From: Escherichia phage ev_rybdy3
Reading direction: 5' to 3' (one strand)
Length of the DNA stretch: 64,000 bases
Sequence record: PQ819470.1
Part shown: piece by piece, positions 19,348 to 26,589 of the stretch
Layout of the letters: each line of letters opens with the position of its first letter
How positions within the stretch are numbered: position 1 is the stretch's first letter
Translations under genes and position numbers: made by a program
The notes under the pieces: model-generated
The model's database searches: none
What the model was told of the DNA's origin: nothing
Seen by the model: the letters and a program-made list of their open reading frames with translations, nothing else

Positions 19348-19644
19348 ATGACTTTAGAAGTATATAAATTCCTTTTTGTAAGCTGTTTAACTATCAGCGT
19401 TCTAGGGTTTATTATTCTCAGAAACAAAGCAGCAAGCTGGGAGAGAATGTACAAATCTCTAGTCCGAGTGGATGAGATGTATAATGAGAAAGTTAAAGCA
19501 ACTCTTAACGATCTTATTATGCAAGTTGAGGACAGAAACAAGCGTCTTCAGAATCTCAACCATGAAGTATTACGCCTTGCTCGTGCTAATGAAGATTTGC
19601 GAGTAGCCATTGCTAAACAGCAGGAGATTAACAGTGAAGCATGA
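19348..19644 (+). CDS. Membrane-anchored coiled-coil protein (hypothetical)
   Basis: 98 aa, N-terminal hydrophobic segment then coiled-coil. Confidence 0.4.
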   Translation: MTLEVYKFLFVSCLTISVLGFIILRNKAASWERMYKSLVRVDEMYNEKVKATLNDLIMQVEDRNKRLQNLNHEVLRLARANEDLRVAIAKQQEINSEA

Positions 19645-19891
19645 TATCAATACAGCACCTGTGGTTAAGCAGCTTAAAGATCTAAGAGTGGGGGATGTTT
19701 TTGAAACTGTACCACATAAGAATAAGTTGTATCTTGTAGTAAAACTCGATTCTTCAACTGTTTATCAAGCCCAATGGAAACCTGATAAAAAGGTAGTAGT
19801 AGATCTTACTTCAGATAGAGTAACAATGTTGAGAAAAGATACTGTTGTTCAAATAGTTGATAATGTTCGTCTTACTAATAAGGTGGATTAA
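19634..19891 (+). CDS. Small paralogous-family protein (GDVF family), copy 1
   Basis: GTG start after AGGAG SD; shares LxxGDVF...NLxxG pattern with 10 other ORFs. Confidence 0.5.
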   Translation: MKHDINTAPVVKQLKDLRVGDVFETVPHKNKLYLVVKLDSSTVYQAQWKPDKKVVVDLTSDRVTMLRKDTVVQIVDNVRLTNKVD

Positions 19892-19893
19892 CA

Positions 19894-20130
19894 GTGAAAG
19901 TTAATATTAAATCCGATCGTACAATGCTTCGCTTAAATAATATGAAGCCGGGCGTTCTATTTGAGCGTAAAGATTCCCTTTACATCAGAACCGACACTCT
20001 GTACGCAGATAATTATATCAACTGTGTTGATGTAGTAACTGGAAAGCTCATGCCTTTTAAACGGGATGAAGTCTGCCAAGTTCGTAGCGATCTCCACATA
20101 ACTAACATAGAGGCTAAAGATGAAGATTGA
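19894..20130 (+). CDS. Small paralogous-family protein, copy 2
   Basis: 78 aa; LNNMKPGVLFERKDSLYIRTD pattern. Confidence 0.5.
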   Translation: MKVNIKSDRTMLRLNNMKPGVLFERKDSLYIRTDTLYADNYINCVDVVTGKLMPFKRDEVCQVRSDLHITNIEAKDED

Positions 20131-20371
20131 TCTTGAGATGAAAGCTAAAGAGTTGTGTGTGGGTGATTTGAAACTTGGTGATGTATTCCAAGTTAAGGCA
20201 ACATGTATTGATTATTACATGATCGTTCAGCTATATACACCACATGTGTCAGAGACTGATCTTCGGAATGGTTGTGTAGTGCTTAGTTTAAGCACCAATC
20301 AAGTAATGAAGCTAGATTCAAACTTACCTGTTTCAGTTATCCATGATGCAGTAATTACCAATCGGAAGTGA
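20120..20371 (+). CDS. Small paralogous-family protein, copy 3
   Basis: 83 aa; LKLGDVFQVKATCIDYYMIV pattern. Confidence 0.5.
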   Translation: MKIDLEMKAKELCVGDLKLGDVFQVKATCIDYYMIVQLYTPHVSETDLRNGCVVLSLSTNQVMKLDSNLPVSVIHDAVITNRK

Positions 20372-20373
20372 AC

Positions 20374-20586
20374 ATGAACATTGAAAAGAAGGTTGTTGAC
20401 GAGGCTGTTCAGTTACGATCTCTTGAAACACATGATGTATTTGTGTGGGGAGGTAGTCTGTTTCAGAAATCTGCTTATGCTGTAGAGGGTGGGGTTCGTT
20501 GTTTTAATATCTTCAACAATGAGATGCAAATCCTACCTAACTTCGCTCATGTGAATAAACTTATCCACCTTTCTATTTATCAATAA
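20374..20586 (+). CDS. Small paralogous-family protein, copy 4
   Basis: About 71 aa; LETHDVFVWGGSLFQKSAY pattern. Confidence 0.45.
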   Translation: MNIEKKVVDEAVQLRSLETHDVFVWGGSLFQKSAYAVEGGVRCFNIFNNEMQILPNFAHVNKLIHLSIYQ

Positions 20587-20596
20587 GGGCAATTAG

Positions 20597-20815
20597 ATGG
20601 AAATTAAAGTAGTTGATTACCCTAAATATGCAAACGCAGAAGATGTCAAGGGCGGTGATGTTTTCTCTTACGATAGACGTTTCTGGCTGATGTTAGAAGA
20701 TAAAACTCCTGATGGTTTGTGTAAGGCCGCTAACTTGAACAGTGGTTCTGTTGAAGTCTTTGGTCTATCAACAACTGTTATGCCACGTCCTGATCTGTGT
20801 TTATCTCAAAAGTAA
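20597..20815 (+). CDS. Small paralogous-family protein, copy 5
   Basis: 72 aa; VKGGDVFSYDRRFWLML...ANLNSGSVEV pattern. Confidence 0.5.
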   Translation: MEIKVVDYPKYANAEDVKGGDVFSYDRRFWLMLEDKTPDGLCKAANLNSGSVEVFGLSTTVMPRPDLCLSQK

Positions 20816-21303
20816 CACCGACTTATAGCCCTTGTGCTTATCAGAGGGCTATGTGAGGGTGTTCCTCATTAACTTATTAATTCAGGCATATGCCACACCG
20901 CTAGGGAGAGCTTGCTCGAACATCCGGTGTTAGACTAAAACCTGTTAATTTTCGAAAGACTTTCTGATATGTAGGGGTACATATTAGTTTGGGATTCAGG
21001 AGACTTCCTAGGGGTAGGGAGTCTTCACCAGTTGGAATAAGAGATAGCTCTAGAACCTGAACTCTTAGGCAGAGAAGGTCGGCAATGAGTACGCGGTCAG
21101 AATTAGTCTACTGACTAGGGCTATCCCTTATATCAACTGGCAATAATGCCTCCACTAACAAAGAGAGATAGGTATGAAAGTATCAACCAAACGTATGAAC
21201 CGCCCTGAACGTATGGATGCAGTAGCTAACGGTGCTCTGAAACTGGAAGGCTTCTGGGTTCATGCAATGTCAGCCATCCGTAACAAGCAAGGTAATTGGA
21301 CCT

Positions 21304-21513
21304 ATGCCGGTTAAATCAGTCCATGTAATAGGTATGCGAGAGATCATTCGCATTGCCTTAATGGAACACACTGATCGCAACGCTCAACTAACGCAAATCT
21401 CTAAGTGTCTTAACTGTTCGAGAGATGTGGCTAAGGAATTAATGTTCGCATTCCTTTATAATGCAGAAGACGAAACGCTACAGAATCATCTGATTCGTGG
21501 TGTGAGTCAATAA
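21304..21513 (+). CDS. Hypothetical protein
   Basis: About 70-aa ORF followed by terminator; start uncertain. Confidence 0.35.
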   Translation: MPVKSVHVIGMREIIRIALMEHTDRNAQLTQISKCLNCSRDVAKELMFAFLYNAEDETLQNHLIRGVSQ

Positions 21514-24901: not shown

Positions 24902-24909
24902 GAATCAAT

Positions 24910-25164
24910 ATGAAAGTTAATGAGTTAAACAAAACTACCAAGACTGTGAAACTGCACACTCTGAAAAAGGGTGATACATTCCGTTTAGAGGAGAATGGTC
25001 CAATCCATATGGTTTGTACTGCGGCATCTACTAACTGGGTAGAAGTTGCACGAGATCGAGTAGTGTGTGTCAGGCTGGAAGATGGTAGTCTGAGCGGTCC
25101 AGTTGAAGGTATCTCTGTTATTCCTGTTAAGGTTGAAGCTAACGTTATTAAGGACTCTAAATGA
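24910..25164 (+). CDS. Small paralogous-family protein, copy 8
   Basis: LKKGDTFRLEENGPIHMV pattern. Confidence 0.45.
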   Translation: MKVNELNKTTKTVKLHTLKKGDTFRLEENGPIHMVCTAASTNWVEVARDRVVCVRLEDGSLSGPVEGISVIPVKVEANVIKDSK

Positions 25165-25406
25165 AGATCATCCCAAAGAAAAAGGATAATACGGTACGGT
25201 TGGAAACGATCATTCCCGGAAACCCCTTCGTGGTTCAGCACGGAAGTGCCTCTCCTCAATATTATATGAGGGTTGAAAATGCTTCTGGTAATATCCGTAT
25301 AGCCAGTGGCTGGGTTCCTGTGGTAAACCTTTCCACAGGTGTACTATCTGTTAAAGGTCTTGATGATCAGGTAGAAATGATTCGTATGTCAGTGGTTCAG
25401 GAGTAG
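25161..25406 (+). CDS. Small paralogous-family protein, copy 9
   Basis: IPGNPFVVQH...YYMRVENASG...VVNLSTGVLSV pattern. Confidence 0.45.
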   Translation: MKIIPKKKDNTVRLETIIPGNPFVVQHGSASPQYYMRVENASGNIRIASGWVPVVNLSTGVLSVKGLDDQVEMIRMSVVQE

Positions 25407-25408
25407 GT

Positions 25409-25657
25409 ATGAGCATCATTAATATTAAGGTTAAGGGCAAGGAGGAAATAGTCCTCCGTGTTAGAGATCTAAATATGTCAGATGTGTTCACTCTCCAAGA
25501 GTGTCAGAATCAAAAGATTTATATGCTTACAGCTAAAAGCAGGGGCTGTCAACCTGCTGGAGCTGTTAACCTAGGCACTGGAGAACTACGTGTCATCTCT
25601 GGTGATATGGTTGTTGGTGAGAAGTTTATTAAGGCTGAAATCATCTTAACTTCATAG
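25409..25657 (+). CDS. Small paralogous-family protein, copy 10
   Basis: NMSDVFTLQE...IYMLTAKSRGCQPAGAVNLGTGELRV pattern. Confidence 0.45.
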   Translation: MSIINIKVKGKEEIVLRVRDLNMSDVFTLQECQNQKIYMLTAKSRGCQPAGAVNLGTGELRVISGDMVVGEKFIKAEIILTS

Positions 25658-25665
25658 GTGATCTA

Positions 25666-25878
25666 ATGACACAAGAAGAGAAAGATATACTCATCCAGAA
25701 TGCGTATCTACTGTTTTCCTCTGAGGATGTTCTGTTCGATCAGCTTTCTAAATTGTGGAAAGTGTCCGAAGAAGAGACTAAAGAGAAGTTTTATTCTGGC
25801 ATAACAGAAGATTACAAATCTTTTCTTGGTGAGGTGCTGAGAGATCGGCATGTGTATCTAAGTAATTACGCCTGTTAA
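25666..25878 (+). CDS. Hypothetical protein
   Basis: 70-aa ORF. Confidence 0.4.
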   Translation: MTQEEKDILIQNAYLLFSSEDVLFDQLSKLWKVSEEETKEKFYSGITEDYKSFLGEVLRDRHVYLSNYAC

Positions 25879-26113
25879 TAGGAAAACAAATGAGACGTAA
25901 AGCATATTCTTATGACGATATGATTAACCAGAAAGGCTTCGGTCAACGACAGCCTGACGGTTCAATTATCTGGTTCGTAAACGGACAGAAAAAGGTAGCT
26001 AAATAAGCCCTCTTCTCTCCCCCCCTTTTAGTACTATGACGCCTCTCTGTGGGCGGCCCAATTTGCGTAGGGAATTCCCTCTACGCAGTCATGATTTTTA
26101 AGGAATTTCCCCT

Positions 26114-26347
26114 ATGTCTAAAGTAAGTGCAATTGATGCAATCCGTCAACCGTTCCAGTTCCAATCCAAATCAACCCAAACCTTCAGCGAGCCTAAGCAA
26201 ATTCGCTTGGGTGGCACAGAGAAGACTGTGTTTGATCTGGCTAAAAACAAGAGCGTTACCGTAGTTGATGGTGGCACTCTGGTTAACGTTTCCCATCGTA
26301 TCCGCACTGGCAAAACTGCCAAAGATCGTGCTAAGAAAGGTGAGTAA
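26114..26347 (+). CDS. Hypothetical protein
   Basis: 77-aa ORF. Confidence 0.4.
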   Translation: MSKVSAIDAIRQPFQFQSKSTQTFSEPKQIRLGGTEKTVFDLAKNKSVTVVDGGTLVNVSHRIRTGKTAKDRAKKGE

Positions 26348-26589
26348 TGAAAATAGGGAAACCAGCTAAGGATGTTCTAGCGAAGATTGGTGATATCTCT
26401 ATTGGGGAAGTTTTCTCAGCTGAGCACTTTTCAAGTTACTACATGAGAATCCCTGACACTAAAGTTGAGGGTTGCATCATCCCTGCCAACGCAGTTAACC
26501 TGAACACAGGACACCTGTCTGCATTCAAACCTGATTCACAGGTTACTGAAATCAAAGATGCCTACCTCGCCTTTGGTGGGGATAAGTAG
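26347..26589 (+). CDS. Small paralogous-family protein, copy 11
   Basis: IGEVFSAEHFSSYYMRIPDTKVEGCIIPANAVNLNTGHLSAF pattern. Confidence 0.5.
   Translation: MKIGKPAKDVLAKIGDISIGEVFSAEHFSSYYMRIPDTKVEGCIIPANAVNLNTGHLSAFKPDSQVTEIKDAYLAFGGDK

What the first reader, a model, noticed from the sequence alone, without database searches (positions are those of the whole stretch)
19634..26589. Expanded family of at least 11 paralogous ~80-aa proteins in four tandem clusters
ORFs at 19634, 19894, 20120, 20374, 20597, 23198, 23429, 24910, 25161, 25409 and 26347 share a recognisable pattern (N-terminal K/L-rich start, [LV]xxGDVF or GxxF, then YI/YM and an NLxTG or C-[IV]-N-[IL] segment) while diverging elsewhere. 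23198 and 23429 are near-duplicates. The clusters are interleaved with the tRNA genes and long non-coding stretches. Such diversified small-protein arrays in early regions often mark host-interaction or anti-defence functions, but no function can be assigned from sequence.
Basis: seen in the sequence. Interest (0 to 1): 0.8.

Follow-up and report, generated by a model that had tools for sequence, protein, structure and literature searches.

The report
Expanded small beta-barrel phage protein family
Eleven of the 34 genes in this coliphage's early region are diverged copies of one small beta-barrel protein family that is widespread in phages but absent from Pfam, NCBIfam and the PDB. It is probably a kit of host-binding proteins, but no member has a known function.

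Summary
The window is Escherichia phage ev_rybdy8, a Kuravirus related to phiEco32 and SU10.

All 11 ORFs are annotated genes and form one real family.
- Leave-one-out profiles recover every member (E 3e-14 to 3e-3); the best unrelated ORF scores E>=0.05.
- No twelfth copy exists in the window.
- Orthologues are under purifying selection (dN/dS 0.00-0.25).

**What the family is.**
- Pfam, NCBIfam, PADLOC and PDB sequence searches find nothing. PHROGs splits the family into at least 11 "unknown function" groups.
These include phage N4 gp21, at least 4 genes of Salmonella phage 7-11, fused two-domain forms, and a three-gene array in an unrelated siphovirus-like contig.

**How it varies.** Copy number runs from 4 to 11 across Gordonclarkvirinae. 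Copies in the same genomic slot diverge to about 30% identity, while neighbouring genes stay at 42-98%.

**Function** is untested. My best guess (0.45) is early-expressed binding modules aimed at host proteins.

There is one tRNA, not several. The "near-duplicates" share 59% identity. The "long non-coding stretches" are highly conserved, and one shows covariation typical of a structured RNA.

The parts
19634..19891 (+). Family member 1 (85 aa, GTG start), first gene of cluster 1
   Evidence: Annotated CDS. Leave-one-out E 3e-6. Matches phrog_9955. dN/dS 0.15 against Bas90.
19894..20130 (+). Family member 2 (78 aa)
   Evidence: Leave-one-out E 8.4e-9. Matches phrog_16423. dN/dS 0.03-0.16.
20120..20371 (+). 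Family member 3 (83 aa). It overlaps member 2 by 11 nt and carries a 12-aa loop insertion.
   Evidence: Leave-one-out E 1.6e-9. Matches phrog_9955. Alignment.
20374..20586 (+). Family member 4 (70 aa), the weakest by sequence
   Evidence: Leave-one-out E 3.1e-3. AlphaFold model has pLDDT 89.6 and the same strand order. Matches phrog_33163 and cross-hits phrog_6570. Found in only 24 phage records.
20597..20815 (+). Family member 5 (72 aa), last gene of cluster 1 and the most conserved copy
   Evidence: Leave-one-out E 3.5e-8. Matches phrog_6570. dN/dS 0.02-0.04. Found in 66 phage records.
23198..23419 (+). Family member 6 (73 aa), first gene of cluster 2
   Evidence: Leave-one-out E 6.3e-5 with its sister gene also left out. 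59% aa identity to member 7. Absent from phiEco32, Bas90 and SU10.
23429..23650 (+). Family member 7 (73 aa)
   Evidence: Leave-one-out E 4.5e-9. Matches phrog_6570. dN/dS 0.00-0.14.
24910..25164 (+). Family member 8 (84 aa), first gene of cluster 3. It lies directly after a two-HTH gene (24590-24901).
   Evidence: Leave-one-out E 2.8e-6. Matches phrog_7832. dN/dS 0.02-0.16.
25161..25406 (+). Family member 9 (81 aa), overlapping member 8 by 4 nt (ATGA). It falls in the same PHROG as phage N4 gp21.
   Evidence: Leave-one-out E 2.1e-8. Matches phrog_7431. Two allele classes across 75 phage records.
25409..25657 (+). Family member 10 (82 aa)
   Evidence: Leave-one-out E 2.8e-6. Matches phrog_12612. 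dN/dS 0.11-0.15.
26347..26589 (+). Family member 11 (80 aa), a single gene rather than a cluster. This is the protein that was modelled.
   Evidence: Leave-one-out E 3.3e-14. AlphaFold pLDDT 85.5, pTM 0.73, five strands. Found in 39 phage records: 17 at >=88% identity and 22 below 60%.
20825..20857 (+). Hairpin motif ATAGCCC-loop-AGGGCTAT-GTGAG, 10 nt after the stop codon of cluster 1. Its link to the family is inferred from position only.
   Evidence: The motif has two copies in the window and none expected by chance. It is invariant in 8 relatives.
26600..26626 (+). Second copy of the same hairpin motif, 11 nt after the stop codon of member 11
   Evidence: The same 34-nt motif sits at both equivalent sites in Suseptimavirus genomes.

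Best explanation
**Proposed mechanism.** The 11 genes encode free-standing proteins of about 75 aa that share one SH3-like small beta-barrel fold. Host RNA polymerase transcribes them in the first minutes of infection, from tightly packed and partly overlapping operons. Each copy most likely acts by binding a different host macromolecule, probably a protein such as a defence or housekeeping factor. Binding would use its variable loops and surface. The few conserved residues (G-D-V-F, Y-Y-M, V-N-L-x-T-G, a C-terminal V) would only build the barrel core and turns. On this view the set is a diversifiable binding scaffold used for host takeover or counter-defence. Phages keep different subsets of old paralogs and swap alleles by recombination.

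**Shown here:** the family, the predicted fold, the early-region position, purifying selection, accessory and fast-diverging behaviour, and wide distribution.

**Inferred:** that the proteins bind, that the targets are host proteins, and that the purpose is takeover or anti-defence.
For: - **Family is real:**
- **Fold:** confident five- to six-stranded barrel models for the strongest and the weakest member (pLDDT 85.5 and 89.6).
- **Conserved positions look structural:** family-wide near-invariant positions are only M1, G20, F23, G55 and V66 (numbering of the 26347 protein). Indels of up to 12 aa sit between strands. That pattern suggests a structural rather than a catalytic core.
- **Real genes:** dN/dS 0.00-0.25.
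- **Early class** by synteny with phiEco32.
- **Accessory and fast-evolving:** 4-11 copies per genome. Members occur in 24-75 of the phage records, with discrete allele classes of >=90% versus 60-80% identity. Syntenic copies against ECBP2 are 29-35% identical, against 42-98% for neighbours.
- **Charge:** near-neutral to acidic (window pI 4.9-9.5; family median 5.2; only 7% above pI 8). This argues against a nucleic-acid binder.
- **Arrays recur in unrelated phages:** 3 tandem copies in a siphovirus-like contig, placed after its replication module; at least 4 copies in phage 7-11; several copies per genome among the BFVD fold hits.
- **Fused forms:** tandem copies are fused into two-domain proteins elsewhere.
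- **Context:** Gordonclarkvirinae are reported as remarkably resistant to restriction-modification systems despite lacking known restriction inhibitors (bioRxiv 10.1101/2024.09.12.612763).
Against: - No member of the family has any experimental function.
- No fused effector or partner domain points to a target.
- The best fold matches are RNA- or ribosome-binding "translation protein" SH3-like domains: ribosomal L2, eIF5A, EF-P and KOW domains.
- One bacterial homologue (P0080) joins five very basic repeats of the domain to a SprT-like protease. That hints at nucleic-acid binding in that setting.
- Low dN/dS within a genus shows no ongoing positive selection.
- The defence resistance of these phages may instead come from DNA modification, as the BASEL authors propose.
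- Transcription timing was measured in phiEco32, not in this phage.
Confidence: 0.45

Rival explanations
1. The proteins are nucleic-acid- or ribosome-binding KOW/EF-P-like barrels. They would modulate translation or transcription (for example by binding rRNA, tRNA or mRNA, or RNA polymerase like CarD and NusG-KOW) rather than inhibit host proteins.
For: - The "NL-TG" turn aligns with the eIF5A "DIFTGK" turn.
- The SprT-like fusion protein P0080 has lysine/arginine-rich repeats of the domain.
- P0083 gives a weak EFP_N match.
Against: - Profile comparison to the EF-P and eIF5A N-terminal domains gives probability below 1%.
- No recurrent Pfam match appears among 77 members even at E<=10.
- The proteins are neutral to acidic, and no basic or aromatic surface position is conserved.
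- From my own recollection, not checked here: the phiEco32 RNA-polymerase pull-down literature reports only gp36 and gp79 as polymerase binders. gp79 is a four-helix protein.
Confidence: 0.2
2. The paralogs work together as subunits of a homo- or hetero-oligomeric assembly, as Sm/LSm rings are built from paralogous small barrels. The array would then encode one machine rather than many independent binders.
For: - Adjacent genes are tightly packed, with small gaps or overlaps.
- Tandem copies are fused into two-domain proteins of 125-186 aa in at least 15 metagenomic representatives.
- Arrays of 3 or more recur in unrelated phages.
Against: - Copy number ranges from 1 (N4) to 11, and from 4 to 11 within one subfamily, with individual members freely present or absent.
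- The model starts with an N-terminal strand, not the Sm helix.
Confidence: 0.12
3. The copies have little or no individual function. They would be redundant or selfish duplicated ORFs carried along in a hyperplastic early region, with the conserved flanking non-coding elements being the truly selected features.
For: - Individual copies are dispensable across relatives.
- The intergenic elements are far better conserved than the genes: 76-86% nt identity against Suseptimavirus, versus about 30% aa identity for the paralogs.
Against: - Orthologue pairs show dN/dS 0.00-0.25 while dS reaches 0.2-2.
- Reading frames, Shine-Dalgarno sites and a confidently predicted fold are all intact.
- The family persists across very different phages.
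Confidence: 0.08
4. The shared pattern is a chance or compositional resemblance among unrelated short ORFs.
For: Pairwise identities are low (17-36%), and some pairs have no significant direct BLAST hit.
Against: - Leave-one-out profiles give E 3e-14 to 3e-3, against E>=0.05 for every other ORF.
- The members cross-hit each other's PHROGs.
- The strongest and the weakest member have the same predicted fold.
- A library-wide search returns 1,418 hits, mostly aligned end to end.
Confidence: 0.01

Closest known systems
Phage N4 gp21 and PHROGs 6570, 7431, 7832, 8365, 9955, 10911, 12612, 16423, 29867, 33163 and 34455 (all annotated "unknown function")
   Same: This is the same family by sequence. 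N4 gp21 scores E 6e-18 against the family HMM and falls in phrog_7431 together with window gene 25161. Size (about 70-85 aa), the MKI start and the motifs all match.
   Different: N4 has a single copy; this phage has 11. PHROGs treats the groups as separate families, and nobody appears to have joined them or assigned a function. Nothing turned up in Pfam, NCBIfam, the PDB or the literature searches.
Translation-protein SH3-like / KOW-like barrels: ribosomal protein L2 domain, eIF5A and EF-P domain I, SPT5/NusG KOW
   Same: These are the best structural neighbours: a five-stranded, strongly bent small barrel with a similar glycine turn.
Tudor-like RNA-polymerase-interacting domains (CarD/CdnL N-terminal domain, UvrD C-terminal domain) and other stand-alone small barrels (FeoA, HspQ, VapX antitoxin, phage 37 ORF041)
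   Same: They share the fold class and size. Several are stand-alone protein-binding modules, which is how I think this family works.
Arrays of small accessory or anti-defence genes in phage early regions (anti-CRISPR loci; the hyperplastic early regions of T4-type phages with their early-promoter stem-loop cassettes, recalled from memory)
   Same: Both involve small early genes with variable content between close relatives, placed between conserved non-coding stem-loop elements. An HTH gene lies next to cluster 3.
   Different: Here most cassettes belong to a single fold family. No inhibition of any defence system has been shown. The HTH gene lies upstream rather than downstream, and it was not tested as a regulator.
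phiEco32 gp79, the one characterised small early regulator of this phage group
   Same: It is also a small early protein of the same genome region, and it acts by binding a host protein (RNA polymerase).
   Different: gp79 is a four-helix protein (PMC12276001). It is not a beta-barrel and not a member of this family.

Membership tests
The small-barrel family itself (N4 gp21 / phrog_6570-7431 group) | Significant match to a family profile built without the tested sequence | tested here: met
   Leave-one-out E 3e-14 to 3e-3 for all 11, with every other ORF at E>=0.05. The members cross-hit each other's PHROGs.
The small-barrel family itself (N4 gp21 / phrog_6570-7431 group) | Common predicted fold: N-terminal strand, short turn, GDVF strand, then three or four further strands | tested here: met
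   Models of the strongest (26347) and weakest (20374) member have pLDDT 85.5 and 89.6 with the same strand order. BFVD Foldseek hits to relatives have TM 0.6-0.93. The other nine were not modelled.
EF-P / eIF5A N-terminal KOW-like domain (Pfam EFP_N PF08207 and relatives) | Sequence-profile similarity to the domain | tested here: not met
   No EFP_N or KOW hit among 77 members at E<=10.
EF-P / eIF5A N-terminal KOW-like domain (Pfam EFP_N PF08207 and relatives) | Close structural superposition | tested here: inconclusive
phiEco32 gp79-type RNA polymerase regulator | Four-helix fold with an N-terminal helix that binds sigma gp36 | tested here: not met
   The family is all-beta in both models. 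The gp79 structure is described in PMC12276001.
Anti-defence proteins (anti-CRISPR, anti-restriction and similar) | Demonstrated inhibition of a defence system | not testable with these tools
   This needs experiments. There is no match to PADLOC defence proteins that might suggest mimicry and no homologue of known function.
Anti-defence proteins (anti-CRISPR, anti-restriction and similar) | Linkage to a small HTH regulator gene (Aca-like) | tested here: inconclusive
   A 103-aa protein with two HTH motifs (Sigma70_r4_2, 31.2 bits against a cut-off of 25.7) is encoded at 24590-24901, directly upstream of cluster 3. The other clusters have no such neighbour, and no regulatory role was tested.
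Any curated family (Pfam-A, NCBIfam, PADLOC, PDB sequences) | Hit above the curated threshold | tested here: not met
   No hits.

The most novel reading that the evidence does not exclude
These barrels form a large, unrecognised superfamily of modular phage inhibitor proteins, with at least 1,400 sequence clusters found from podoviruses to siphoviruses. Each paralog would neutralise a different host defence or housekeeping protein. The 4-11-copy arsenal, shuffled between ultra-conserved structured non-coding "anchor" elements, would explain why Gordonclarkvirinae resist restriction-modification and most tested defence systems without any known inhibitor.
Probability: 0.25. Interest if true: 0.75.

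Novelty: new member of a known kind. Interest (0 to 1): 0.5.

Why it matters
**A third of this early region is one unnamed family.** Eleven of the 34 annotated genes between 17.1 and 27.3 kb belong to it. The family also occurs in N4-like phages, phage 7-11, Vi1-like phages and many metagenomic phages. No Pfam entry, structure or function exists for any member.

**Naming it would clear up annotation.** Joining at least 11 PHROGs into one domain would tidy the annotation of more than a thousand "hypothetical protein" clusters.

**It gives experiments a defined target.** The result is a short, structurally uniform candidate list for host-takeover or anti-defence screens. The phage group concerned is used for therapy and is reported to be unusually resistant to restriction-modification systems.

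**If the binding-scaffold idea is right,** this would be a natural example of a small barrel diversified for many targets.

**The intergenic elements are a separate lead.** The conserved, apparently structured non-coding elements between the clusters bear on how early-gene expression, or cassette exchange, is organised in these phages.

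Tried and rejected
1. **gp79 as a member.** I checked whether phiEco32 gp79, the known small RNA-polymerase regulator, belongs to the family. It does not: gp79 is a four-helix protein.
2. **Curated libraries.** Pfam, NCBIfam, PADLOC and PDB sequence searches gave no meaningful hit.
3. **Fold searches.** They returned only generic SH3, KOW and Tudor barrels. The afdb50 library was not available.
4. **EF-P/eIF5A relationship.** This was suggested by the fold ranking and the NL-TG turn. Profile comparison rejected it at the sequence level. 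A database search started from the EF-P N-domain timed out.
5. **Second wide-alignment search.** It returned fewer proteins than the first and added no names.
7. **tblastn of distant representatives against 50,697 phage records.** It found nothing or only Gordonclarkvirinae. Most distant members are therefore metagenomic.
8. **Giant proteins with NHL, LVIVD or cadherin repeats in the hit list.** I judged these spurious repeat matches. Other giant proteins (P0083, P0089, P0109) carry real-looking but weak repeats of the motif and were not pursued.
9. **Polyvalent-protein literature.** It does not mention such a barrel.
10. **Promoters.** Consensus sigma-70 scanning found no more sites than shuffled sequence (20 against 23.9 expected) and none in the long gaps. 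The promoters of the clusters remain unidentified.
11. **tRNA-like fragment at 24523-24561.** It is not a detectable tRNA.

Full report
**Source and setting.** The window is 100% identical to Escherichia phage ev_rybdy8 (PQ819471.1; the window + strand is the record's minus strand). This is a 77.8-kb podophage of the phiEco32/SU10 group: Kuravirus, subfamily Gordonclarkvirinae. Genes from about 12 kb to 58 kb run on the + strand. The finding lies in the part that corresponds to the early gene class of phiEco32. There, the phage sigma factor gp36 uses promoters before genes 6, 13, 26, 40, 58 and 68. [quoted passage not shown] The gp36 promoter motif AATGTATA does not occur between 17.5 and 28 kb.

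Each has a Shine-Dalgarno-like sequence, and spacing is tight, with gaps of 2-10 nt or overlaps of 4 and 11 nt.
- All-against-all BLAST links the 11 into one network (for example 20597-23429 at 2e-9, 25409-26347 at 1e-8, 19894-23429 at 7e-7). Five neighbouring ORFs of similar size get no hit below E=1.
- The unbiased test was leave-one-out. A profile built from the other members recovers each omitted member as the best non-training ORF among 410 ORFs, at E 3e-14 to 3e-3. The best unrelated ORF never beats E=0.05.
- A broader profile and hhalign find no twelfth member. The 11 score 97-99% and the other 23 annotated CDS between 17.1 and 27.3 kb score <=2.4% (only the negatives are independent).
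- So 11 of 34 genes in this 10-kb stretch belong to one family.

- There is one tRNA gene in the whole window, Arg-TCT at 22545-22620.
- ORFs 23198 and 23429 share 59% aa and 65% nt identity, which reflects an old duplication. phiEco32, Bas90 and SU10 have only the 23429 type.
- The fourth "cluster" is a single gene.

**Are they genes?** Orthologue pairs with phiEco32, Bas90, SU10 and EP335 give dN/dS of 0.00-0.25 at dS of 0.06-2.3.

**What are they?**
- Pfam, NCBIfam, PADLOC and PDB sequence searches find nothing.
- PHROGs places the window copies in eight groups (9955, 16423, 7832, 6570, 7431, 8365, 12612, 33163). All are "unknown function" and cross-hit one another. Relatives add 10911, 29867 and 34455.
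- AlphaFold2 with a 77-sequence alignment gives a confident model for the 26347 protein: pLDDT 85.5, pTM 0.73, strands at 9-13, 22-25, 31-38, 47-51 and 65-69. The weakest member, 20374, gives pLDDT 89.6 with the same order of elements.
- The fold ranking and the shared "NL-TG" turn suggested a link to EF-P/eIF5A. Profile comparison gives under 1% probability, and no member touches EFP_N or KOW models even at E<=10. The result is a resemblance in fold class only.
- phiEco32 gp79, the known small RNA-polymerase regulator of this group, is a four-helix protein and is unrelated.

**The family is much larger than the window.**
- A profile of the 11 copies finds 1,418 representatives (clusters at 50% identity) at E<=1e-3. 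Most are 66-100 aa and align end to end.
- About 15 are two-domain fusions of 125-186 aa.
- One Tenacibaculum protein joins a SprT-like protease domain to five basic repeats of the barrel.
- Phage N4 gp21 is a clear member (E 6e-18, phrog_7431). Salmonella phage 7-11 has at least four: gp110, gp112, gp131 and gp133.
- BFVD fold matches, all "uncharacterized", include phages of Vibrio, Morganella, Proteus, Providencia, Erwinia, Dickeya, Pseudomonas, Klebsiella, Serratia and Yersinia, often with several proteins per phage.
- A 17.8-kb IMG/VR contig with a siphovirus-type replication module (Gam, Sak4, SSB, DnaD-like) carries three overlapping tandem copies just after that module.
- Arrays of this barrel in early or accessory regions are therefore a general habit of the family, not a Kuravirus peculiarity.

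**Evolutionary behaviour.**

Copy number by broad HMM:

| Phage | Copies |
|---|---|
| ev_rybdy8 (window) | 11 |
| EP335 | 11 |
| Bas90 | 10 |
| phiEco32 | 9 |
| SU10 | 9 |
| ECBP2 | 7 |
| MLP3 | 5 |
| Bas86 | 4 |

- The copies always sit in the same four genomic slots. Subtypes such as phi32_97, phi32_98 and phi32_109 are absent from this window.
- Single members occur in 24 (20374), 39 (26347), 66 (20597) and 75 (25161) of 50,697 phage records. They often fall into two discrete identity classes, >=90% and 60-80% or below 60%.
- Between this Kuravirus and the Suseptimavirus ECBP2, copies in the same slot are 29-35% identical, whereas seven syntenic non-family genes are 42-98% identical.
- Several window paralogs are closer to metagenomic proteins from outside the subfamily than to any neighbour. 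The expansion is therefore old, and it is maintained and reshuffled rather than being a recent burst of duplication.

**How it probably works.**
- The only near-invariant positions are glycines, core hydrophobic residues and the start methionine. Insertions of up to 12 residues sit between strands.
- The proteins are neutral to acidic: pI 4.9-9.5 in the window, a family median of 5.2, and only 7% above pI 8.
- Together with early position, small size, accessory distribution and fast between-genus divergence, this fits stand-alone binding modules that each recognise a different host macromolecule, most likely proteins. That places them in the category of host-takeover or counter-defence factors.
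- Context adds plausibility. [quoted passage not shown] The same authors favour an unknown DNA modification as the cause.
- I put this mechanism at 0.45.
- Rivals are an RNA-, ribosome- or polymerase-binding KOW-like role (0.2), cooperative hetero-oligomers suggested by the fused forms (0.12), and near-functionless redundancy (0.08).
- Chance similarity is excluded.

| Gap | Window coordinates | nt identity to Kuravirus/Nieuwekanaalvirus relatives | nt identity to Suseptimavirus |
|---|---|---|---|
| 1 | 20816-21173 | 92-98% | about 82% |
| 2 | 24051-24589 | 95-97.5% | 76% |
| 3 | 26590-26820 | 94-97% | 86% |
| 4 | 25879-26113 | 85-98% | 84-86% |

- For gaps 2 and 4, and for gap 1 against Suseptimavirus, the match covers only part of the gap. 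All four gaps are far better conserved than the paralog genes beside them.
- Gap 1 matches 113 phage records and gap 2 matches 141. Almost none of the listed matches overlaps an annotated feature.
- For gap 1, an eight-genome alignment gives a consensus structure of 87 pairs, and 98.4% of cells are paired. Eleven pairs show compensatory changes, against 0-2 in slid controls, and no shuffle out of 500 reaches the observed covariation score. A 57-nt deletion in Suseptimavirus removes exactly the tip of one helix. Many G-U pairs favour the + strand. No Rfam family matches.
- Caveats for gap 1: there are only eight sequences from about three lineages, and the structure was derived from the same alignment.
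- Gap 2 starts with 55 nt that are identical in all eight genomes and form two hairpins. Five of its predicted pairs covary. The single sequence folds with z = -4.3.
- A hairpin motif, ATAGCC(C)-loop-(A)GGGCTAT-GTGAG, lies 10-11 nt after the stop codons of the last gene of cluster 1 and of gene 26347. None is expected by chance. The same element sits at both equivalent sites in Suseptimavirus.
- Variable cassettes between conserved stem-loop anchors recall the shuffling cassettes of T4-type hyperplastic regions. That comparison is from memory and was not tested.

**Novelty and verdict.** The proteins are in databases as hypothetical proteins, and PHROGs holds them as separate unknown groups. 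I found no paper or curated family that unites them, names the domain or assigns a function. The fold class is ordinary, and diversified small early genes are a familiar phage theme. I therefore file this as a new, undescribed member of a known kind. The finding is real and well delimited. Interest: 0.5.

Noticed in passing
window 20816-21173 (+): This 358-nt unannotated gap after cluster 1 is 92-98% identical in Kuravirus relatives and about 82% in Suseptimavirus. It shows a covarying consensus structure: 87 pairs, 11 of them compensatory, and 0 of 500 shuffles reach the covariation score. A lineage-specific 57-nt deletion removes exactly one helix tip. No Rfam family matches. It is a candidate conserved structured RNA or leader.
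   Followed up: partly
window 24051-24589 (+), especially 24056-24300: This is a 539-nt gap before the HTH gene and cluster 3. Its first 55 nt are identical in all 8 genomes examined and form two hairpins. Positions around 24215-24295 are also nearly invariant and end in a GGGAGG...CCTCCC hairpin. Five predicted pairs covary, and the single-sequence fold has z = -4.3. The gap matches 141 phage records, and almost none of the listed matches is annotated.
   Followed up: partly
window 20825-20857 and 26600-26626 (+): The same hairpin motif (ATAGCC(C)-loop-(A)GGGCTAT-GTGAG) sits 10-11 nt after the stop codon of the last gene of cluster 1 and of gene 26347. None is expected by chance. It is conserved at both equivalent sites in Suseptimavirus. 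It could be an end-of-operon signal, a processing site or a recombination anchor.
   Followed up: partly
window 24523-24561 (+): The sequence GCGTAGGTTCGAATCCTACACCTGTAACCA looks like the T-arm, acceptor strand and CCA end of a tRNA. Neither ARAGORN nor Rfam calls a tRNA, and the region folds no better than shuffles. It is absent from the 7 relatives fetched, but the whole gap is 99% identical in phages KM01, ShigP1 and PGN6866. It is possibly a tRNA remnant.
   Followed up: partly
window 24590-24901 (+): This 103-aa protein has two HTH motifs (Sigma70_r4_2, 31.2 bits, above the cut-off). It is annotated "endonuclease" in this record and "D5-like transcriptional regulator" in relatives. It lies directly upstream of cluster 3 and could regulate the early operon.
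   Followed up: no
window 21940-22116 and 23660-23833 (+): Two small cysteine-rich proteins lie between the clusters. One has a CxxC...CxxC zinc-ribbon-like pattern. The other is 57 aa, acidic, and has 10 cysteines. No family is assigned to either.
   Followed up: no
window 19348-19644 (+): This 98-aa ORF directly upstream of cluster 1 is annotated "DNA helicase" in this and related records. It has no Pfam match and is far too short to be a helicase, so the annotation has probably been propagated in error.
   Followed up: no
window 18759-19148 and 22641-22940 (+): A cell-wall hydrolase domain protein (Hydrolase_2) and a "Phage lipoprotein family" protein (PF24052) are both encoded within the early region rather than in the lysis or late module.
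   Followed up: no
L012 7463-8213 (IMG/VR UViG 3300021400_001752): Three overlapping tandem members of the same family lie in an unrelated siphovirus-like contig. They sit just after a Gam/Sak4/SSB/HNH/DnaD replication module and before a PAPS-reductase-like gene.
   Followed up: yes
proteins P0080, P0083, P0089, P0109, P0120 (metagenomic; not in the window): The barrel also occurs as five basic repeats fused to a SprT-like metalloprotease in a Tenacibaculum MAG. Weaker repeated copies occur inside giant proteins of 1,900-3,200 aa that have no Pfam domains. Their nature (polyvalent or injected proteins?) was not resolved.
   Followed up: partly
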